Positions 8,154 to 56,703 of a DNA stretch of 64,000 nt are shown one piece after another. The stretch lies in the NCBI GenBank assembly GCA_002238905.1, contig MPNG01000004.1, forward strand, positions 8,461 through 72,460, written 5' to 3'. The notes beneath the pieces were generated by a model, which was not told where the DNA came from, did not search any database, and saw only the letters and a program-made list of their open reading frames with translations. The stretch is from Alphaproteobacteria bacterium bin98 (lineage in GTDB: Bacteria; Pseudomonadota; Alphaproteobacteria; Bin98). Position 1 is the first letter of the stretch, and each line of letters opens with the position of its first letter. The position numbers and the translations under genes were made by a program.

Positions 8154-10067
8154 TTGGAGTATACTGTGTCAGTTAATCAAAAACATTTTTGGATTTTAAT
8201 ATGCGCTGTTTTGGGATTAGCGCTAGTCTATAATTCTATGGATAATTCGCGCCAAACTGCGCAATCGCATGTGGTGGAATATTCAGCGTTTAAAAAAGCC
8301 GTGGATACGCAAAAGGTTCGTGAAGCCTCTTTGAAGGGAGACTTAGTGATTGGAAAATATGTCACCGGCGATGTCTTTGTGACCCGCATTCCATCTCATT
8401 TGCAAGTGGCGAACCTCTTAACAGCGCAAGGCGTAAGAGTAGAAGCGTTGGATCGTGAAGATGATATACCTTCTTTTTGGAGTATTTTAATATCATGGTT
8501 TCCGGTGCTTTTGTTTATTGCTGTGTGGGTTTACTTTTATCGCCAGATGAATTCCAAAGGCGGCAATGTTATGGGTTTTGGTCGCGCCAAAACAAAATCC
8601 CTTACAGAACATCAACGTATTGTGCGTTTTAAAGACGTGGCTGGTGTGGAAGAAGCTAAAGAAGAGCTTCAAGAGATTGTTGATTACTTAAAAGATCCCG
8701 ATCGCTATCAACGCTTAGGAGGAAAATTACCGCGCGGTGTTTTGCTGGTAGGACCTCCAGGAACAGGAAAAACCCTCTTGGCTCGTGCGGTTGCCGGTGA
8801 AGCTGGTGTCTCTTTCTTTAGTATTTCTGGATCTGACTTTGTGGAAATGTTTGTGGGAGTGGGTGCATCTCGTGTGCGTGATTTGTTTGAACAAGCTAAG
8901 AAAAAATCCCCATGCATTGTGTTTGTTGATGAAATCGATGCGGTGGGACGTCACCGTGGCGCCGGTATGGGTGGTGGAAACGATGAGCGTGAGCAAACAC
9001 TGAATCAGCTTTTGGTGGAGATGGATGGTTTTGAGCCGCAAGTAAATATTATTATTATTGCCGCTACTAACAGGCCGGATGTATTAGATAAAGCACTTCT
9101 GCGCCCTGGGCGTTTTGATCGTCAAGTTGTTGTGCCTCTTCCAGATGTGCGTGGTCGTGAAGCGATTGTGCGCGTGCACCTTGAAAAAGTGCGACACACT
9201 GCAGATGTGGAGCCTCTTGTGATTGCGCGTGGTACACCAGGATTTTCTGGTGCGGATCTTGCAAACATCGTGAACGAAAGCGCTCTTCTTGCAGCGCGCT
9301 CTGGAAAACAAAAAGTGGACGCAACAGACCTAGAAGAAGCAAAAGATAAAGTGATGATGGGAGCAGAGCGTCGCTCCATGGTTATGAGCGAAAATGAAAA
9401 GAAACTGACGGCATACCACGAAGCAGGACACGCGCTTGTGGCCGTGCATACACCAGGATCAGACCCTATTCATAAAGTGACCGTGATTCCACGTGGGCGA
9501 GCGCTTGGTATGGTGATGCAGCTTCCAGATAAAGATGTGCTTTCTGTTACACGTGCAAAACTGCGTGGTGATATTGCTATTGCTATGGGCGGTCGTGTAG
9601 CTGAGGAAATGATTTTTGGCGCTGATAATATGACCACGGGCGCTGAATCAGACATTCAGATGGCGACAGAGCGCGCTAAGGCTATGGTGGGGCGCTGGGG
9701 AATGAGCGATGATCTTGGTCCACTGAATTATATGCAGGATACTAACCCATTTACCTCTAATGGAGAAGCTTTGCCTATTTCTGATAAAGTCGCAGAGCGT
9801 ATGGATAAAGAAGTGTGTCGCATTGTTCTGGAAGGTTATGAATCCGCTAGGAAGGTTCTGAAAAAACATAAAGACCAACTCGAGCTGTTAGCACAAGTAC
9901 TGCTCCAAAGAGAAACCTTGACCGGTGCTGATGTAACAGCGCTTTTGTCTGGTAAGGATTTGGGCCCTATTCCTCAAAAAAGAAAGGTGGTTAGACGAAA
10001 AACGTCTCTGACCCCTGGGCCAGAAATGAAAACAACAAAGACAATAAAAAAAGCCCCTAAAAAATAA
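8154..10067 (+). CDS. ftsH: ATP-dependent zinc metalloprotease FtsH
   Basis: AAA Walker A GPPGTGKT, second region of homology, HEAGH zinc site; TTG/GTG start likely. Confidence 0.95.
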
Positions 10068-11293
10068 TGGCAATATTGGGTGCAGATGGTGTTCGTGGGC
10101 GCGTGGGTGTATCTCCCATGACACCAGAGGATATGTTCGCTCTAGGGCGCGCAATTGGGCATACCATAGCCTCAAACCGTTTGATAGTGATTGGATGTGA
10201 CACACGCGCGTCATCGCCTTTGTTTGTCAAAGCACTCAGCGAAGGCTTTATGATGGCTGGCGTTGATGTGTGTGATATTGGTGTGGTTCCTACGCCCGCT
10301 GTTTCCTTGTATGCACAGAAAAAAAACGCTAGTTGTGGTGTCATGATTACAGGATCACATAATCCAGAAGATGTGAATGGATTGAAGGTTTTTAACGCCT
10401 TTGGTCATAAAGTGGACGGCGCTTGGTGGAATAAGGTTCAAAATGTACACAAAGAACCGTTGAGTGCGTCAGAGAGAACAGGCAAGAGTTGCAAAGATCC
10501 GGAAGGCATCACTCATTATATGCATTCTTTAGAAACTCCTGATTATCAAGGGCGTGTCATTGTAGATTGCGCAAACGGTTCCAACACGGCATGTTTGTTT
10601 CCCGCTTACTGTGAGCGTATTGGCGTAGGTGGCGTTATTAATGTAAATTGCGGTACACAACACAGCAATATCATACAAAAAGCGGTGATTGATCACAAAG
10701 CTGATGTCGGATTTTCTTTTGATGGAGATGGTGACCGGGTGTGGGCTTGCGATGCGCAAGGAATCCTTTACGATGGTAACGCACTTATGGCGCTTTTGGC
10801 TTTCCACGATCCATGTGTGCAGAGTGTTGTGGTTACGCAGTATGCAAACAGTGGCTTGGTATGTTTTTATAAACAGATTGGTAAAAAAGTGTTTGTGAGT
10901 GAGGTGGGAGATGCGCATGTTGCGCGTACCATGCGCTCAGAGCAGGCAGACCTTGGCGGAGAGCCTTCAGGGCATATTTTGCTCAAAGGAGCGCATGTGG
11001 GAGATGGAGCAGCTGTGATGATGCGTGTGTTGCGCTTAATGCATGAGCAGCGGAGCTCTCTTGCTGATTTGGCTGCATTGTGGCAGCCATGGCATGAGGT
11101 GCTTTTTTCTGTAGCTCAAGATTGCGCTACGCAAGACCGCATAGAGACCATTAAAAGTATGTCATTACACAGCCGCTGTGAGATGCGGTTTTCCCAAACA
11201 GAGCCTGTAATGCGTGTTTATATGGAGTGCAAAGAGCAAAATATCGTTTTGGAAGAGTCCAAAAAGGTGCGCTCTGTCTTTAAAACGCAATAA
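10067..11293 (+). CDS. glmM: phosphohexomutase, GlmM by synteny (phosphoglucosamine mutase)
   Basis: active site TGSHNP, metal loop FDGDGDR; TAATG overlap with ftsH stop. Confidence 0.7.
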   Translation: MAILGADGVRGRVGVSPMTPEDMFALGRAIGHTIASNRLIVIGCDTRASSPLFVKALSEGFMMAGVDVCDIGVVPTPAVSLYAQKKNASCGVMITGSHNPEDVNGLKVFNAFGHKVDGAWWNKVQNVHKEPLSASERTGKSCKDPEGITHYMHSLETPDYQGRVIVDCANGSNTACLFPAYCERIGVGGVINVNCGTQHSNIIQKAVIDHKADVGFSFDGDGDRVWACDAQGILYDGNALMALLAFHDPCVQSVVVTQYANSGLVCFYKQIGKKVFVSEVGDAHVARTMRSEQADLGGEPSGHILLKGAHVGDGAAVMMRVLRLMHEQRSSLADLAALWQPWHEVLFSVAQDCATQDRIETIKSMSLHSRCEMRFSQTEPVMRVYMECKEQNIVLEESKKVRSVFKTQ

Positions 11294-51218: not shown

Positions 51219-53150
51219 CTAAGTTAAACGCATCGCTTCTGTTTGTGCTTTGTAAAGACTGTAAAATGTACCTTGTTGTGCGAGCAGTTCATCAAATTGC
51301 CCTTGTTCAATGATCTTTCCTTCTGAAAACACAAGAATAGTGTCCATTGCGCGAAGAGATGCAACGCGGTGTGTGGCGATGAGAGCAGTTTTTCCATCCA
51401 TAAGATCGGTAATCGTCTCTTGGATTTTTTGCTCTGTTAAGGGGTCCAGCTGAGAAGCTGCTTCATCTAGAACAAGGATAGGTGCGTTTTTTAAAATAAC
51501 TCTTGCAATAGTAACTCGTTGTTTTTGGCCGCCAGAAAGTTTTAATCCTTGTTCACCAACGATAGAGTCGTATCCTTCAGGCTTTGTTTTAATAAAGGAG
51601 TCAGCGTCTGCTAGTTGTGCAGCGCGTGTAACTTCTTCCATAGAAGCATTGGGTTTTCCATAAAGGATATTTTCTTTTAAAGAGCGATGAAATAGCTGTG
51701 CATGCTGCGGAATGCATCCAACAGCTTGATGCAGCGATGAGATTTGAATGTTGCGTATATCTTGTCCATCTAAGGTGATTGAGCCAGAGTCAACATCATA
51801 GAGTCGTAAAAACAGGTTTAGAAAAGAGGATTTACCACTTCCTGACTCACCCACAATGCCTACCTTCTGTCCATGTGGAATGGTTAAGGAGAGGTTTTCA
51901 AAAAGAGGCTCTTCTTCTTTGTTGTAGGAGAATGTAACGTTGTGAAAAGTGATTGCTCCACGGGTTTTTTTCAAAGGCTCTGCTTCTGGCGAGTCCTTTG
52001 TTCCTATGGGTGCAAGAAGATCTGAAAGAGCACTGTTTACTTGCCCAGTTGCGTCTTGAAGGTCGTGCACACGGTGTACCAGGTTCCATAGGTTGTCTGC
52101 AATATACGCAGAGCTTCCGAGGATAAAAACCGCATCACCAAGAGAAAGTTTGCTGTGTTCATACATAAGCAGAAGGCCAAAAGCGCCACATGCCAAAAGA
52201 GATGACATGCAAATCCCCTGCAAAATATTCATAACGAAAATGGTCCATTCTTTACGCTGATAAGCGAGAAAAAGCTGTGATGTAAATGAGCGAATGTATT
52301 GGGTTTCAAAGTCCAATCGTGAAAAAAGGCGCACAGTATCTATATTAGCAGTGCTGTCTACAATGCGGCCAGAAACATTCGCTAGTTCTTGAGCATAAAG
52401 CGCTCCGTTGCGCATGATGCGGCGTTGAAAGAGGGCAATGATCACAAAAAACACGCATACCCAAAGAGCAAAAAATGTGGCAAAAAGGGGATGGATAAAG
52501 GCGATTGCGACTGAGGAGATGAAGATTTGCGCTACCGCATGTAAGACGCACGCCATGGCGCCGTAGCATGTGCTTTCAGCAAAGAGCGCTACAATATTAA
52601 TTTTTGCGGATAAAGATCCTTTCAGATTATTTTGAAAAAACGCATGAGAATGTTGACCAATATAGTTGAACAGGTGGCTCATGATTTTTGTTTTTATCAT
52701 TGGCGCCGTATGAATACGAATAATACCAATGCAGCGCCAAAGCAGCTGGTTGCCTTGATGCACAAGAATATAAACAATGACGCTTGCAAAAGCGCTATCA
52801 AACGCTAATGCAGGAGATATGTTGAGGGAGTCGATAATTTTTTTAAGGGTGAATGAACTGACTGTCGAATAGCTGCTGGCGCCAATTAAGGCTATAAAGA
52901 ATAGTACAACACGAACGGGGTAGTCTTTGTAACACCAGTGTAAAAAAGGCCAAAACGTTTGAGGTATTTTTTGTTGTTTGTCGTTCACATTACATAATAC
53001 ACGCTTACAAAAAATAAAAAAAGGGATTAGAACATTAAGAAAAAATGTTAGTCTTTGTTGTATATGGAGAGTGCATGACAGAAAAGATAGCAGTTGGTTT
53101 GGTATGTGGTGGCCCTTCTTTGGAGCGTGGTATTTCTTTAAATTCAGCAC
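51219..53150 (-). CDS. ABC exporter, fused permease/ATPase (MsbA-like)
   Basis: 6-TM N-domain; Walker A GESGSGKSS, signature LSGGQKQRV, Walker B ILVLDEA; true start uncertain. Confidence 0.8.
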   Translation of the reverse strand: MLNLKKYHAPKKGHHIPNQLLSFLSCTLHIQQRLTFFLNVLIPFFIFCKRVLCNVNDKQQKIPQTFWPFLHWCYKDYPVRVVLFFIALIGASSYSTVSSFTLKKIIDSLNISPALAFDSAFASVIVYILVHQGNQLLWRCIGIIRIHTAPMIKTKIMSHLFNYIGQHSHAFFQNNLKGSLSAKINIVALFAESTCYGAMACVLHAVAQIFISSVAIAFIHPLFATFFALWVCVFFVIIALFQRRIMRNGALYAQELANVSGRIVDSTANIDTVRLFSRLDFETQYIRSFTSQLFLAYQRKEWTIFVMNILQGICMSSLLACGAFGLLLMYEHSKLSLGDAVFILGSSAYIADNLWNLVHRVHDLQDATGQVNSALSDLLAPIGTKDSPEAEPLKKTRGAITFHNVTFSYNKEEEPLFENLSLTIPHGQKVGIVGESGSGKSSFLNLFLRLYDVDSGSITLDGQDIRNIQISSLHQAVGCIPQHAQLFHRSLKENILYGKPNASMEEVTRAAQLADADSFIKTKPEGYDSIVGEQGLKLSGGQKQRVTIARVILKNAPILVLDEAASQLDPLTEQKIQETITDLMDGKTALIATHRVASLRAMDTILVFSEGKIIEQGQFDELLAQQGTFYSLYKAQTEAMRLT

Positions 53151-55450
53151 GCACGCTTTTGGACCACTTAGGCGCTTCGGACGACATAGAGATTGTGCCT
53201 TTTTATGTAGATGTAAAGGAGCGATTTTACCGTATTACCTGTGCTCAGCTTTACTCTAACACCCCATCAGATTTTGATTTTAAACTAACAAAAAAAGATC
53301 TATTACCATGGGAGAAATGTGTAGAGCATATGCGAGATTTGGATATTGTTTTTCCTGTGATTCATGGTGCGTTTGGCGAAGATGGAACGTTGCAGAGATT
53401 GCTAAACGAAGCTGGTATTCCGTTTGTGGGCGCGGACGCTTCTTGCTGCCGTCAAATGGTAGATAAAAAATCTATGCGTATGTTTTTGAAAAAGAAGAAA
53501 CTGGGTCATTTAGAGTCGTTGCAGGTTTTGTATCAAGGTGAGTCAGGGTTGGCATGGATGGTTCAAAAATTTTGGGATGAATCTGTCCAGAATGCAGCGG
53601 TTGTGAAACCCAATAGGGGTGGATCATCCATTGGCGTTTCCATGGTTACGAGTGTGGATGAAGCCATGCGCTGTGTGTCAGATTTGCATGATCGGGGTGA
53701 AAAAGAGGTCATCTTGGAGCCGTTTGTGCATGGTCGTGAATTTACCGTTATTGTGTTACAGGACCATGAAACAGGCTCGCCAGTGGCACTTCTTCCTACA
53801 GAAATAAGTCTTTTGACGGAAGAGAGATTTCCAATGTTTTCTTACCGACGAAAATATTTACCAACCGCGAATACACTGTGGACGTGTCCATCGTTTGAAG
53901 AAAACCATATGTTAGAAAGCATTCAAAAAGAAGCGGAGTGTCTTTTTGAGAGTTTGGGGTGTCGTGATTTTGTACGATTTGATGGATGGGTTGTGGATGG
54001 CCGTATTGTATGGTCGGACTTTAACCCTATTAGCGGTTTTGAACAAAACAGTTTTATATTTTTGCAAGGTGTACGAACAGGCATGACCCATCAACACGTG
54101 CTGCGCTATATTCTTAATAACGCTTTGCAGCGTGTTGATAAAGCGCTGCCACTTGGTGTGGAATATGACCCTGAGGTGTCTGGTCGCAGCGTGAGGGTGC
54201 TGTTTGGTGGAGATACGGCTGAAAGGCAGGTATCACTGATGAGTGGATTGAATGTTTGGTTGCAGTTGATGCACACCCGCAATTATGTGGTTACGCCTTA
54301 TTTATTGTCAGGCAATGATGTGTGGCAAATACCGTATGCATTTGCGTTGTTTCATACAGTGGAAGAAATTTTAGAACAATGCCAAAGTGCTCTTGCTGTG
54401 CGAAAATCGGTGTTGTCGCTGCGAGCTGACTTGCGTGATCGGCTGCATCTGGCGCCCATGGAAGATTTTGAGATGCCTACACGTACATCGTTGACAGAAT
54501 TTATCGCTCAGGCAAAATCTGATAATGCCTATGTGTTTTTGGGGCTTCATGGCGGTATAGGGGAAGATGGAAGCATACAAGCGCTTTTAACGCAAAGTGG
54601 CTGTCAATATAATGGATCACTTTCTGAGCCAAGCGCTTTGTTTATGGATAAGAAGCGCACAGGAGAGTATATTAACTCCTTGCATATGTCGCATATATCA
54701 GCTCTTCCTAAGATTTTGCTTTCTGCTAAAGAGGGAGTGAGCTCTTTTGACAATTTATGGAAACGTTTGGTTTCTGATTTGGGTTCAAAAAAAATTATTA
54801 TTAAGCCAAACTTTGATGGTTGTTCTGCGGGTGTGGTGTTATTAACGAGAGCGCATGATTTGAAAATATACTTTTCTTTGCTTGGTCAGGAAGCTGTGGA
54901 AATTCCTCCACATACCTTTGAAGCGCAAGAAAGCGTTATTGTGTTGCCGCATGCAGAAGAGCTTATTTGTGAGCCATTCATTGAGTGTGACGAGATTTGT
55001 ATTCGCAATCAAGAGCTTACTCTTAAGAAAAAAACAGGTTGGGTGGAGCTTACGGTAGGGGTTGTGCGTGCAAGTGGTCAGCAGAGGCATCACGCATTTC
55101 ATCCAAGCATGACGATAGCGGATGGATCCGTTTTAAGTTTAGAAGAAAAATTCCAAGGAGGAACAGGCATTAATATTACACCTCCGCCTGTGCTTGTGAT
55201 GTCAGAAGATGACATTATAGTAATGCGGAAAAGGCTATCTGATCTAGCAAGTAAGCTAGGAGTTGGTGATTATGCGCGCATTGATCTTTTTTACCATCGT
55301 GAGCGCAAAGAAATGTGTATCATTGAGGTAAATGCTTTGCCGGGATTGACGCCATCAACAGTGTTGTACCATCAGTCCCTTGCTGACGAAACTCCCCTGA
55401 CTCCAAGGGAGTTTCTAGCGTTTATGTTGAAGAGATCAGCGCAATCTTAA
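53075..55450 (+). CDS. ddl: tandem-fused double D-alanine--D-alanine ligase (two complete ATP-grasp Ddl modules)
   Basis: module 1 VIHGAFGEDGTLQ...GGSSIG...RRKYLP...SDFNPISG; module 2 GLHGGIGEDGSIQ...DGCSAG...IEVNALPG. Confidence 0.8.
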   Translation: MTEKIAVGLVCGGPSLERGISLNSARTLLDHLGASDDIEIVPFYVDVKERFYRITCAQLYSNTPSDFDFKLTKKDLLPWEKCVEHMRDLDIVFPVIHGAFGEDGTLQRLLNEAGIPFVGADASCCRQMVDKKSMRMFLKKKKLGHLESLQVLYQGESGLAWMVQKFWDESVQNAAVVKPNRGGSSIGVSMVTSVDEAMRCVSDLHDRGEKEVILEPFVHGREFTVIVLQDHETGSPVALLPTEISLLTEERFPMFSYRRKYLPTANTLWTCPSFEENHMLESIQKEAECLFESLGCRDFVRFDGWVVDGRIVWSDFNPISGFEQNSFIFLQGVRTGMTHQHVLRYILNNALQRVDKALPLGVEYDPEVSGRSVRVLFGGDTAERQVSLMSGLNVWLQLMHTRNYVVTPYLLSGNDVWQIPYAFALFHTVEEILEQCQSALAVRKSVLSLRADLRDRLHLAPMEDFEMPTRTSLTEFIAQAKSDNAYVFLGLHGGIGEDGSIQALLTQSGCQYNGSLSEPSALFMDKKRTGEYINSLHMSHISALPKILLSAKEGVSSFDNLWKRLVSDLGSKKIIIKPNFDGCSAGVVLLTRAHDLKIYFSLLGQEAVEIPPHTFEAQESVIVLPHAEELICEPFIECDEICIRNQELTLKKKTGWVELTVGVVRASGQQRHHAFHPSMTIADGSVLSLEEKFQGGTGINITPPPVLVMSEDDIIVMRKRLSDLASKLGVGDYARIDLFYHRERKEMCIIEVNALPGLTPSTVLYHQSLADETPLTPREFLAFMLKRSAQS

Positions 55451-56703
55451 TACCCTTGTTGTGCGATTTGGAAATTGTTTCCAATACCAGCAAATGGATT
55501 GTTAGGAGGAGGAAATCCGCCTGGAGCGAAGTTAGGGGGAGGGAGGAATCCACCTCCTCCACCGAAGGCACCAGGTTGTATGCCTGCTGGTCCGTACCCA
55601 CCACTTCCTGTCGATCCAAATCCAAATCCGCCTGTTGTGCCTACGCCTTGGGCTTGTTGGCCTTGACTTACCATTTTCATAAAGGCTTGCTGTGATCCTT
55701 TGCGTGGTGTAAACCAGGCCTTGGAAAGAGTGATGTCGCCCAATTGTGCATCACCTATTAGACAAGCTGGCACAATTTCATGCTCCGCTATTATTTGCAT
55801 CCTTTCACCGTTGTTAGGGTGAAAAATACGACCTGAGAGACAAACAGTGTTGCAGAAAGCGACAATGATTTCTGCAACATCTTTCGCAAAATCATCTTTG
55901 GCGCTTCCCTCTTGCGCTTGGTTTTCGCTACCCGGGAAATTACCAGGATATCGGGAAAATGCCATTGGGTTTACAAGAAGCGCTAGCTTGGATGTAAGCG
56001 CTTGTACAGGGTCCCAGTCTTCGACTGGTTGGGCTTCCTTGTCTGTAGCCAAAGCACAGATAAGCGCTTTCTTCTCTCTTGCGTCTTTTAATGGCTGGGA
56101 ACCATCCACTTGGTTTTCAAAAGCCTCTGTATTTTCCGCAGATCGCGGAAAAGCGAATTTATGCCCATTATACAGTTTTGTAGCCTGATTCCACTGGGCC
56201 CGCAATGGTGAGTCAATACGCATATCCATTCCTATACTTCGAGGTCCCTGCATGCAAAGCTGTGTACACTTAGCCCCCGCCCAACCAGGGTGTGCTGTCC
56301 CCAGTGCCCTAAGAAGTTGTCGAATTTGACCAGCTTGAGTTAATATACCGCCACCATGGTGTAAAAAACAACGCATAAGACCGAGAATAGGATCACCTGT
56401 TGAAATACAGGGCCCCATAGTGGCCTGTCCGAATTTTTGTGCAGCACGTTTAGCTTTGTTTTTGAAAAAACTCAAAGAGCGTGTGAGGCGATGCTTGGCT
56501 TTGTTTGCCACCGCAATTCCTGCATATCGGGTGCCACTATATGCTCCTTGTGCTGCTCCTTGTATTTCTTGGGAGAAGCCCTGTCCATCTTCGCTGCCAT
56601 TCCCATACTGCTGCTGATACTCATACTGCTGCTGATACTGATCAGTAGACATGAGCACAGATGAATGACAGGCTATCAAAATAAATAAAAAAAGTAAAGC
56701 CAT
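55447..56703 (-). CDS. hypothetical secreted protein with QQYEY repeats and C-terminal Gly/Pro/Phe-rich low-complexity tail
   Basis: SD aggggaggag; signal peptide MALLFLFILIACHSSVLMS; tail GFGFGSTGSGGYG...GGGGGFLPPPNFAPGGFPPPNNPF. Confidence 0.55.
   Translation of the reverse strand: MALLFLFILIACHSSVLMSTDQYQQQYEYQQQYGNGSEDGQGFSQEIQGAAQGAYSGTRYAGIAVANKAKHRLTRSLSFFKNKAKRAAQKFGQATMGPCISTGDPILGLMRCFLHHGGGILTQAGQIRQLLRALGTAHPGWAGAKCTQLCMQGPRSIGMDMRIDSPLRAQWNQATKLYNGHKFAFPRSAENTEAFENQVDGSQPLKDAREKKALICALATDKEAQPVEDWDPVQALTSKLALLVNPMAFSRYPGNFPGSENQAQEGSAKDDFAKDVAEIIVAFCNTVCLSGRIFHPNNGERMQIIAEHEIVPACLIGDAQLGDITLSKAWFTPRKGSQQAFMKMVSQGQQAQGVGTTGGFGFGSTGSGGYGPAGIQPGAFGGGGGFLPPPNFAPGGFPPPNNPFAGIGNNFQIAQQGY

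What the first reader, a model, noticed from the sequence alone, without database searches (positions are those of the whole stretch)
53075..55450. Single ORF encoding two complete D-Ala-D-Ala ligase modules in tandem
Both halves (about aa 1-360 and 370-800) contain the Ddl N-terminal HG.fGEDG..Q.lLe motif, the central Ser-containing loop, the K-Y/F pair and the C-terminal R.D.......E.N..PG ATP-grasp block. The second module keeps IEVNALPG exactly, the first has SDFNPISG. This suggests an internal duplication with divergence, for example Ddl plus a D-Ala-D-X or other ATP-grasp activity, rather than a fusion to MurC/MurF.
Basis: partly seen in the sequence, partly recalled or inferred. Interest (0 to 1): 0.6.

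Follow-up and report, generated by a model that had tools for sequence, protein, structure and literature searches.

The report
Two-module, plant-type D-Ala-D-Ala ligase
This gene really does encode two complete D-alanine-D-alanine ligase units in one protein, but it belongs to a large, conserved and uncharacterised bacterial family that sits in the cell-wall gene cluster of many bacteria and is the counterpart of the double "DDL" enzyme of plants.

Summary
The gene at 53075-55450 (+) encodes 791 aa made of two full Ddl-type ATP-grasp modules joined by a linker of about 19 aa. It is not an assembly join: the identical protein occurs on 15 contigs from several samples. The same one-ORF architecture occurs in 521 GTDB species.

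Both modules keep essentially all E. coli DdlB ATP, Mg and D-Ala ligands. Module 1 has the Glu-Ser-Tyr triad of dipeptide ligases, with E270 replaced by Asp. Module 2 has an invariant Glu-Cys-Phe triad, a helical insert (HTxEE...C) and a GGTGxNxTPPP motif.

The modules are only 26% identical, co-evolve as a unit, and each type also exists as a separate protein. This does not look like a recent internal duplication.

In related genomes the gene lies between murB and ftsQ in the dcw cluster, or directly upstream of alanine racemase. No other ddl lies within 10 kb.

Plant DDL proteins align colinearly at about 40% identity and carry the module-2 motifs. The published plant DDL is a fusion of two DDL units whose knockout in moss abolishes D-Ala dimerisation.

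Best reading: this is the organism's peptidoglycan D-Ala-D-Ala ligase in two-module form. What module 2 contributes is unknown. It is a new member of a known kind.

The parts
53066..53069 (+). Shine-Dalgarno-like GGAG, 5 nt upstream of the ATG at 53075
   Evidence: Read directly from the sequence. It supports the 791-aa start rather than the ATG at 53045.
53075..55450 (+). Complete gene for the two-module Ddl (791 aa plus stop). It equals P0001, annotated at NCBI as 'hypothetical protein OXC30_03725, Alphaproteobacteria bacterium'.
   Evidence: TIGR01205 scores 270.7 bits against a cut-off of 245.65. The AF2 model has pLDDT 90.9 and pTM 0.91.
53075..54133 (+). Module 1 (aa 1-353), the canonical-looking Ddl. 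Equivalents of E. coli DdlB residues: E17 (E15), H97, K131 (K97), K178 (K144), S184 (S150), K260-Y261 (K215-Y216), R301/D303 (R255/D257), D315 (E270 replaced by Asp), N317. It also carries the family motif NTPSDFDFK.
   Evidence: Pfam aa 7-120 and 170-347. Residue mapping. Invariant columns.
54134..54190 (+). Variable linker of about 19 aa (aa 354-372) between the modules.
   Evidence: These columns are poorly conserved and gapped in 60 homologues. AF2 shows no regular structure at aa 353-370.
54191..55447 (+). Module 2 (aa 373-791), a divergent Ddl-type module. Equivalents: E383 (E15), H492, K526 (K97), K577 (K144), C583 (S150 replaced by Cys), K692-F693 (K215, Y216 replaced by Phe), R735/D737, E751/N753, T762-V763 (S281/L282).
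   Evidence: Pfam aa 373-515 and 656-763. The profile alignment to PDB Ddls is and the residue mapping. TIGR01205 gives only 101 bits for this half alone.
54329..54478 (+). Module-2-specific helical insert (about aa 419-468) with invariant H427, T428, E431 and C436 and nearly invariant E430 (HTVEE...C).
   Evidence: Invariant or nearly invariant columns. AF2 predicts helices at 421-424, 429-437 and 439-456. E. coli DdlB has no counterpart (alignments).
55157..55189 (+). GGTGINITPPP motif (aa 695-705) directly after the catalytic Lys-Phe, in the lid (omega-loop) region of module 2.
   Evidence: Invariant in the family. It served as the scan pattern that found 521 species. pLDDT is 61-64 here, as expected for a flexible lid.
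51219..52988 (-). Divergently transcribed neighbour: a fused ABC exporter (ABC_membrane plus ABC_tran, 589 aa). This is context only.
55447..56703 (-). Convergent neighbour of 418 aa with no family match and a lipoprotein-like N-terminus. Its 3' end overlaps the ddl stop codon by 4 nt. This is context only.

Best explanation
Function: The gene encodes this alphaproteobacterium's peptidoglycan D-alanine-D-alanine ligase in a two-module ('plant-type') form. Each module is a complete ATP-grasp Ddl fold with its own ATP/Mg2+ site and D-Ala1 site.

Module 1: It carries the Glu-Ser-Tyr triad of dipeptide-forming Ddls. I infer that it makes D-Ala-D-Ala for MurF.

Module 2: It is a distinct, old Ddl paralogue type. 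It has a Glu-Cys-Phe triad, Thr-Val in place of Ser281-Leu282, a helical insert and the GGTGxNxTPPP motif. It also occurs as a free-standing enzyme, so it is most likely catalytically active too. It either makes D-Ala-D-Ala as well or accepts a different second substrate.

Why fused (inference): Single-module Ddls work as homodimers. The fusion would then give a covalent pseudo-heterodimer, which the rigid, confident inter-module packing in the model supports.

Shown here: the architecture, residue conservation, gene-neighbourhood linkage to cell-wall genes, and homology to plant DDL.

Inferred: the products of each module and the pseudo-dimer geometry.
For: - Domain and family hits are.
- Both halves keep all DdlB catalytic and ligand residues in 40 of 40 members, and both are equally constrained: 81/367 versus 82/424 columns are at least 97% conserved among 120 homologues.
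- Pairwise divergence of the two halves is correlated at r=0.89, so they evolve as one unit.
- Context: 36 of 80 related loci have cell-wall or division neighbours, confirmed by Pfam. In L023, L032, L049 and L071 the order is murC-murB-[this gene]-ftsQ-ftsA (ftsZ follows in all but L071); L015 has the same genes with a ~1 kb gap before ftsQ, and L029 shows the murC-murB-[gene] part. In 12 Patescibacteria loci alanine racemase lies within 250 nt downstream, 2-7 nt in ten of them.
- No other Ddl-like ORF lies within +-10 kb in any locus.
- Plant DDLs align colinearly from module 1 into module 2 at 37-47% identity and share HTxEE, GGTGINLTPPP and IEVNTVPGMTPSTV.
- Plant DDL is published as a fusion of two DDL enzymes whose moss knockout cannot dimerise D-Ala (PMC9954125; PMC7432710).
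- The AF2 model has pLDDT 90.9 and pTM 0.91. The best structural matches are all Ddl/VanA/VanG, with TM 0.76-0.87 normalised to the target.
Against: - In this window the gene is not in a dcw cluster. Its neighbours are an ABC exporter and an unknown lipoprotein-like gene.
- I could not scan whole genomes, so a second, single-module ddl elsewhere is not excluded.
- Intact copies exist in archaea that lack murein: Methanosarcina sp. T3, in an island with an IS200 transposase, and a Methanocella MAG with two copies.
- Some members carry an N-terminal HTH domain.
- No bacterial member has been assayed, as far as the literature I could search shows.
- Module 1 has Asp for the Mg ligand E270. Module 2 lacks the Ser and Tyr of the classical triad.
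Confidence: 0.75

Rival explanations
1. Bifunctional ligase with two specificities. Module 1 makes D-Ala-D-Ala. Module 2 ligates D-Ala to a different acceptor (D-lactate, D-serine or another compound), giving a second precursor.
For: - Module 2 has an invariant Phe at the Tyr216 position, Cys at Ser150, and Thr-Val at Ser281-Leu282 of the D-Ala2 pocket.
- In lactic-acid-bacterial Ddls, Phe versus Tyr at this position decides depsipeptide versus dipeptide synthesis (PMC5996685).
- Module 2 has extra conserved elements near the lid.
Against: - The Phe/Tyr rule was established only within DdlA-type enzymes of Firmicutes, and module 2 is far outside that group.
- No VanH/VanX-like or D-lactate dehydrogenase neighbour is conserved.
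- A clade of free-standing module-2 proteins exists with no module 1 nearby, as expected if module 2 can itself serve as the Ddl.
- Moss chloroplast precursors were reported identical to the Gram-negative pentapeptide (PMC9434261).
Confidence: 0.2
2. Module 2 (or module 1) is a catalytically silent structural or regulatory partner. Only one site makes product, and the other merely replaces the second subunit of the Ddl dimer.
For: - Pseudo-enzyme partners are common after duplication.
- Module 2 scores far below the Ddl family cut-offs on its own (101 versus 245.65 bits).
- Module 1 has an Asp at a Mg ligand position.
Against: - Every catalytic and ATP/Mg ligand is invariant in both modules across phyla, and invariant-column density is equal. 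A purely structural role would not maintain this.
- Both module types occur alone.
Confidence: 0.08
3. The protein is not a cell-wall enzyme. It would be an ATP-grasp ligase for another D-Ala-containing or unrelated small peptide, and the dcw linkage would be incidental in some lineages.
For: - Archaeal copies occur in organisms without murein.
- HTH-fused versions exist.
- The window's own copy is outside any cell-wall cluster.
Against: - The gene occupies the exact ddl slot between murB and ftsQ with no other ddl there.
- It sits 2-7 nt from alr in many Patescibacteria.
- The plant orthologue's knockout phenotype is linked to D-Ala dimerisation.
Confidence: 0.05
4. Artefact: two adjacent ddl genes were joined by an assembly error or frameshift.
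For: Rare split forms exist elsewhere. In L089 the two modules are overlapping ORFs, and L090 has an in-frame TAA in the linker.
Against: - The identical 791-aa protein is on 15 contigs from independent samples.
- A single ORF of median 802 aa is found in nearly all of the 80 species loci (L079 carries only module 2).
- There are 361 clusters at 50% identity, mostly about 800 aa with module 2 at residues 360-800.
Confidence: 0.01

Closest known systems
[quoted passage not shown]
   Same: - It has the same two-module order.
- Plant proteins align colinearly from module 1 into module 2 at 37-47% identity, which is as close as bacterial members are to each other.
- They share the module-1 motif NTPxDFDFK and the module-2 motifs GGxTSERQVSxMSGTN, HTxEE...C, GGTGINLTPPP and IEVNTVPGMTPSTV.
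- Genetic evidence in moss links it to D-Ala dimerisation for plastid peptidoglycan (PMC9954125).
   Different: - The plant proteins carry an N-terminal transit-peptide region of about 70 aa and extra loops.
- Here the protein is bacterial and has no leader.
- The plant sequences I could inspect were truncated isoforms or gene models, so the full module-2 catalytic set (Cys, Lys-Phe) was not verified in plants.
- The separate roles of the two plant modules are also unknown (discussion).
Single-module D-Ala-D-Ala ligases (E. coli DdlB 2DLN; DdlA-type 3I12, 3E5N, 3LWB, 3TQT)
   Same: - It has the same fold (Foldseek TM 0.76-0.87 to the target).
- It has the same ATP/Mg/D-Ala ligands.
- Module 1 has the same Glu-Ser-Tyr triad.
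- Relatives occupy the same genomic slot, murB-ddl-ftsQ.
   Different: - There are two modules in one chain.
- Sequence identity is 20-27%.
- Module 1 has Asp for E270.
- Module 2 has Cys and Phe for S150 and Y216, plus an insert of about 50 aa.
- Each half alone falls below or near the curated cut-offs.
Depsipeptide-forming Ddls (Leuconostoc LmDdl2 1EHI, Lactobacillus Phe-type Ddl) and VanA
   Same: Module 2 has Phe at the position where Phe-type Ddls of lactic acid bacteria differ from Tyr-type dipeptide ligases. VanA and LmDdl2 are among the structural matches.
   Different: - NCBIfam D-Ala-D-Lac models score 31.9-42.3 bits against cut-offs of 550-775.
- There is no vanH/vanX context.
- The hosts are Gram-negative-type or ultra-small bacteria.
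MurC-Ddl fusion of Chlamydiaceae (NF011171 / PRK14573)
   Same: It is a long fusion protein that contains a Ddl module and is used for peptidoglycan precursor synthesis in host-associated bacteria (PMC5814848).
   Different: The fusion partner there is a Mur ligase, not a second Ddl. The model scores 114.9 bits against a cut-off of 1015, and only its Ddl part matches. No Mur_ligase domain is present.

Membership tests
D-Ala-D-Ala ligase family (Pfam PF01820 + PF07478; TIGR01205) | N-terminal and C-terminal Ddl domains scoring above the curated cut-offs | tested here: met
   Both Pfam domains are found twice and all four are above gathering scores. TIGR01205 scores 270.7 against 245.65 for the whole protein. 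Module 2 alone scores 101, below the cut-off.
D-Ala-D-Ala ligase family (Pfam PF01820 + PF07478; TIGR01205) | ATP-grasp catalytic and ligand residues of E. coli DdlB (E15, K97, K144, E180, E187, K215, R255, D257, E270, N272) | tested here: met
   All are present and invariant in both modules, except E270 replaced by Asp in module 1. The DdlB reference was verified against 2DLN.
D-Ala-D-Ala ligase family (Pfam PF01820 + PF07478; TIGR01205) | Glu15-Ser150-Tyr216 triad typical of dipeptide (not depsipeptide) ligases | tested here: inconclusive
   Module 1 has E-S-Y, so the feature is met. Module 2 has E-C-F, so it is not met.
D-Ala-D-Ala ligase family (Pfam PF01820 + PF07478; TIGR01205) | ATP-dependent synthesis of D-Ala-D-Ala | not testable with these tools
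   This needs an enzyme assay or complementation. The only indirect support is the dcw/alr neighbourhood and plant genetics.
D-Ala-D-Ala ligase family (Pfam PF01820 + PF07478; TIGR01205) | Genomic association with cell-wall or division genes | tested here: inconclusive
   The feature is met in relatives: 36 of 80 loci, including murB-[gene]-ftsQ and [gene]-alr. It is not met in this window.
Two-module plant-type DDL | Two Ddl units in one polypeptide, module 1 followed by module 2 | tested here: met
   The plant architecture is stated in PMC9954125.
Two-module plant-type DDL | Colinear homology to plant DDL across the module boundary | tested here: met
   Raphanus P0323 aa 73-631 aligns with window aa 3-491 at 39.6% identity. 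Zostera P0331 aligns at 37.5%. Bacterial tandem proteins are the best non-plant hits of plant DDL.
Two-module plant-type DDL | Module-2 hallmark motifs (HTxEE...C, GGTGxNxTPPP, IExNxxPGxTPSTV) shared with plants | tested here: met
   They are seen in the Eleusine P0353 and Kalanchoe P0329 gene models and in the N-terminal part of module 2 of several plants.
D-Ala-D-Lac / D-Ala-D-Ser ligases (VanA/B/C/G types, NCBIfam exception models) | Score above the curated model cut-offs | tested here: not met
   The best is VanG at 169 bits against a cut-off of 495. D_ala_D_lac scores 132 against 550 for the whole protein. For module 2 alone the scores are 57 bits or less.
MurC-Ddl bifunctional enzyme (NF011171) | Mur ligase domains fused to Ddl | tested here: not met
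   There is no Mur_ligase Pfam hit. NF011171 scores 114.9 against 1015.

The most novel reading that the evidence does not exclude
Module 2 (Glu-Cys-Phe triad, extra helical insert, GGTGxNxTPPP lid) would not be a redundant D-Ala-D-Ala site. It would catalyse a different ligation: a D-Ala-D-X depsipeptide or dipeptide, or a further ligation acting on the product of module 1. Under this reading, Patescibacteria, environmental Chlamydiae, predatory and host-associated Alphaproteobacteria, Bdellovibrionota and plant plastids would share an unrecognised cell-wall precursor chemistry, and the archaeal copies would use it for a non-murein purpose.
Probability: 0.15. Interest if true: 0.65.

Novelty: new member of a known kind. 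Interest (0 to 1): 0.4.

Why it matters
- Annotation: NCBI labels this protein and several relatives 'hypothetical protein'. The evidence here supports calling it the cell-wall D-Ala-D-Ala ligase of its host.
- Plant connection: the puzzling double DDL of plants is not a plant invention. It is an old bacterial architecture that occupies the ddl slot of the dcw cluster in several phyla. This gives a bacterial system in which to ask why two Ddl units are needed and which bacteria donated the plant gene.
- Pharmacology: Ddl is the D-cycloserine target. A covalent two-site enzyme with a Cys/Phe variant site could behave differently towards the drug.
- Limit: the architecture itself is already documented for plants and visible in domain databases, so the surprise to a specialist is moderate.

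Tried and rejected
- Anti-phage defence or toxin-antitoxin role, prompted by HigA-like names of some homologues: PADLOC gives no hit for the protein. Only the HTH part of fused relatives hits.
- Assembly join: rejected.
- Recent internal duplication: rejected. The halves are 26% identical and each type also occurs alone.
- Second ddl or dcw genes in the window: none in the 64 kb.
- The Hirano 2016 moss paper and the Sato & Takano 2017 phylogeny are not held. Searches for a described bacterial tandem Ddl found nothing.
- The rickettsial ddlB in the Volvox paper was aligned over only 361 amino-acid sites, consistent with a single-module Ddl.
- My regular-expression motif counts were too strict and were discarded in favour of the alignment.
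- Promoter and terminator scans showed nothing above shuffled expectation.
- N-terminally shortened homologues on long contigs could be real decay of module 1 or gene-calling and frameshift effects. I did not resolve this.

Full report
**1. The observation**

The window holds an ORF at 53045-55450 on the + strand. The ATG at 53075 is preceded by a GGAG at 53066-53069. It is also the start used by gene callers and matched by homologues, which gives 791 aa.

Pfam finds the N-terminal and C-terminal Ddl domains twice:
- aa 7-120 and 170-347 (81.2 and 77.1 bits);
- aa 373-515 and 656-763 (64.7 and 33.1 bits).

All four are above the gathering scores. TIGR01205 passes its cut-off for the whole protein (270.7 versus 245.65). 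The second half alone reaches only 101 bits.

**2. Not an artefact, and not unique**

- The identical protein is on 15 contigs from several independent metagenome assemblies.
- A search of 5.8 billion proteins gave more than 2,500 homologues. The best 120 are 44-54% identical over at least 93% of the query (98-100% for all but one) and mostly about 800 aa long.
- A scan of one genome per GTDB species with two module-2 motifs found relatives in 521 species.
- In 79 of the 80 loci kept, the match lies in a single long ORF carrying both modules, median 802 aa where the contig does not cut it; L079 carries module 2 alone.
- An exhaustive profile search with module 2 found 361 clusters at 50% identity with E of 1e-30 or better. 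Most are 780-830 aa with module 2 at residues 360-800. A few are free-standing (404-450 aa) and a set is 880-990 aa or longer.
- Carriers include Alphaproteobacteria (Micavibrio, Holosporaceae, Rickettsiales MAGs), Bdellovibrionota, Parachlamydiales and other Chlamydiae, many Patescibacteria, some Gammaproteobacteria and Opitutia, and two methanogen records.

**3. Anatomy**

I aligned 40 family members, split into halves, with E. coli DdlB. My DdlB reference sequence is identical to PDB 2DLN/1IOV. Both halves are invariant at the equivalents of E15, S19, H63, E68, K97, K144, S151, E180, E187, K215, R255, D257 and N272, and G276 is nearly invariant.

- Module 1 keeps Ser150 and Tyr216, the Glu-Ser-Tyr triad. 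It always has Asp for the Mg ligand Glu270 and mostly Phe for Leu282.
- Module 2 always has Cys for Ser150, Phe for Tyr216 and Thr-Val for Ser281-Leu282.
- Module 2 also carries a helical insert with a conserved HTxEE...C and a GGTGxNxTPPP motif right after the catalytic Lys.

Both halves are equally constrained. Among 120 homologues, 81 of 367 columns in half 1 and 82 of 424 in half 2 are at least 97% conserved.

AlphaFold2 with a 60-sequence alignment gives pLDDT 90.9 and pTM 0.91. Low confidence is confined mainly to the two lid loops and the C-terminal end. The high pTM for a two-module chain indicates a confidently fixed arrangement of the modules.

Foldseek against the PDB returns only single-module Ddl, VanA, VanG and LmDdl2 structures, with TM 0.76-0.87 normalised to the target. 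Nothing covers both modules. No solved structure is related to the whole chain by sequence either.

**4. Evolution of the two modules**

- The halves share 26% identity over 170 aa, scoring 55 bits. That is less than half 1 shares with stand-alone Ddls in the PDB, at about 90 bits.
- Across 60 members, pairwise identities of the two halves correlate at r=0.89. The fusion is therefore old and the modules have evolved together.
- A clade of free-standing module-2 proteins exists. They are 415-443 aa, start MKKVYVLFGG..., and retain all the hallmarks. They sit between aspartyl-tRNA synthetase and endonuclease III in two of four loci (L086, L088), with no module 1 nearby in any.
- Module-1-sized proteins also occur alone.
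- Rare split forms keep the two genes adjacent: L089 has overlapping ORFs, and L090 has an in-frame TAA in the linker.

This argues against a recent internal duplication. It favours two long-separated Ddl types that work together.

**5. Genomic context**

In this window the neighbours are housekeeping genes. They include LeuRS, a TolC-like protein, an acyltransferase, a divergent ABC exporter, an unknown convergent gene, a CCA/poly(A) polymerase, a ParA/MipZ-like protein, a phosphohexomutase, TspO and GlyQS. There is no dcw cluster anywhere in the 64 kb.

I clustered my own ORF calls across the 80 related loci and confirmed the clusters by Pfam. This gave:
- FtsQ in 15 loci;
- FtsA in 16 loci;
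- alanine racemase in 14 loci;
- FtsZ and MurB in 7 loci each;
- MurC, FtsW and MurE/F-type ligases in 6 loci each, and MurG and a PBP in 5 loci each.

Several Alphaproteobacteria and a Bdellovibrionales MAG show ftsW-murG-murC-murB-[tandem gene]-ftsQ-ftsA, followed by ftsZ in L023, L032 and L049 (for example L023, L049, L071). That is the ddl slot. In Patescibacteria, alr usually starts 2-7 nt after the stop codon. In all, 36 of 80 loci have at least one such neighbour. No locus has another Ddl-like ORF within 10 kb.

**6. Link to plants**

A search with module 1 alone returned plant proteins, several of them named D-alanine--D-alanine ligase: Raphanus, Zostera, Vitis, Arabidopsis lyrata, Stylosanthes, Kalanchoe, Camellia and grasses. 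It also returned an algal transcript. These share 37-42% identity over more than 90% of the module and score 220-260 bits.

- The plant proteins have a leader of about 70 aa, then align colinearly through module 1, the linker and into module 2. For example, Raphanus aa 73-631 aligns with window aa 3-491 at 39.6%.
- Gene models that reach further show the module-2 hallmarks HTTEE...C, GGTGINLTPPP and IEVNTVPGMTPSTV.
- Seen from the plant side, bacterial tandem proteins are the best non-plant matches at 40-47%.

[quoted passage not shown] It reports that moss Ddl knockouts cannot dimerise D-alanine and form macrochloroplasts (PMC9954125; see also PMC7432710). The window protein is therefore a bacterial member of the plant-type two-module DDL family. 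I found no paper in the searchable library that describes the bacterial members.

**7. Mechanism**

Best-supported reading (confidence 0.75): this is the host's peptidoglycan D-Ala-D-Ala ligase.

- Module 1 has the signature of a dipeptide-forming Ddl.
- Module 2 keeps every catalytic residue and exists on its own, so it is probably active as well.
- Module 2 has Phe at the Tyr216 position. In Ddls of lactic acid bacteria this position decides dipeptide versus depsipeptide synthesis (PMC5996685). A second specificity therefore remains a live rival, at about 0.2.
- That rule has not been tested outside that group, and no vanH/vanX-type partner is conserved here.
- A silent structural partner is unlikely given the invariance of both active sites.
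- The idea that the fusion mimics the Ddl homodimer as a covalent pseudo-dimer rests on established knowledge that Ddls are dimers and on the high pTM. It could not be checked because coordinates are not exposed.

**8. Caveats**

- Whole genomes could not be scanned for a second ddl.
- The archaeal copies show that the family can persist where there is no murein. Methanosarcina sp. T3 carries a copy in an island with an IS200 transposase, a Roc-COR protein and an AAA_15 ATPase. A Methanocella MAG carries two divergent copies.
- Some members have an N-terminal HTH domain.

**9. Verdict**

It is not a one-off duplication. It is a new bacterial member of a known (plant-type) two-module DDL family, and the biochemical reason for its two sites is still unknown. 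Interest is moderate (0.4).

Noticed in passing
window 55447-56703 (-): A 418-aa protein with no Pfam or PADLOC match. It has a lipoprotein-like N-terminus (..LFILIAC) and Gln/Gly-rich low-complexity ends. It is convergent with the ddl gene and overlaps its stop codon by 4 nt.
   Followed up: partly
window 10067-11293 (+) and 58929-60290 (+): Two phosphohexomutase (PGM_PMM) family genes lie in one 64-kb window. The first follows ftsH, a position typical of glmM, and lacks a domain IV hit. The second has all four domains and follows a ParA/MipZ-like gene.
   Followed up: no
L074 8903-11311 (Methanosarcina sp. T3, NZ_CP195120.1): An intact 802-aa two-module Ddl occurs in an archaeon without murein. 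It sits in an island with a Roc-COR LRR GTPase, an AAA_15 ATPase and an IS200-type transposase, which suggests horizontal acquisition.
   Followed up: partly
L053 5988-8423 (+) and 10668-13418 (-) (Methanocella MAG contig): Two divergent copies of the tandem gene lie on one contig. The second is 915 aa, 37% identical to the window protein, has extra insertions and reads EDKFMGGTG instead of EEKFQGGTG.
   Followed up: partly
P0095 and about 10 of the top 120 homologues: Some family members carry an N-terminal Xre/HigA-type HTH_3 domain of about 100 aa fused to the two Ddl modules. As a result, some are misnamed 'HigA family addiction module antidote'.
   Followed up: partly
L079 4137-5414; L086 8001-9281; L087 8001-9257; L088 8001-9272: This is a clade of free-standing module-2-type proteins of 415-443 aa. 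In L086 and L088 they lie between aspartyl-tRNA synthetase and endonuclease III; in L079 between DotU and endonuclease III; in L087 beside an ImpA_N gene. All four loci also carry type VI secretion-related genes. No module 1 is nearby.
   Followed up: partly
L089 3704-5981; L090 272-2635: These are split versions of the gene. In L089 the module-1 and module-2 ORFs overlap by 17 nt. In L090 a single in-frame TAA sits in the linker, with no good restart before the essential Glu of module 2. That could be a pseudogene, an error or readthrough.
   Followed up: partly
P0160, P0159, P0148, P0177, P0211: Several homologues on long contigs start inside module 1, at equivalents of residues 80-297, while module 2 is complete. 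This could be decay of module 1 in some lineages or an effect of frameshifts and gene calling.
   Followed up: no
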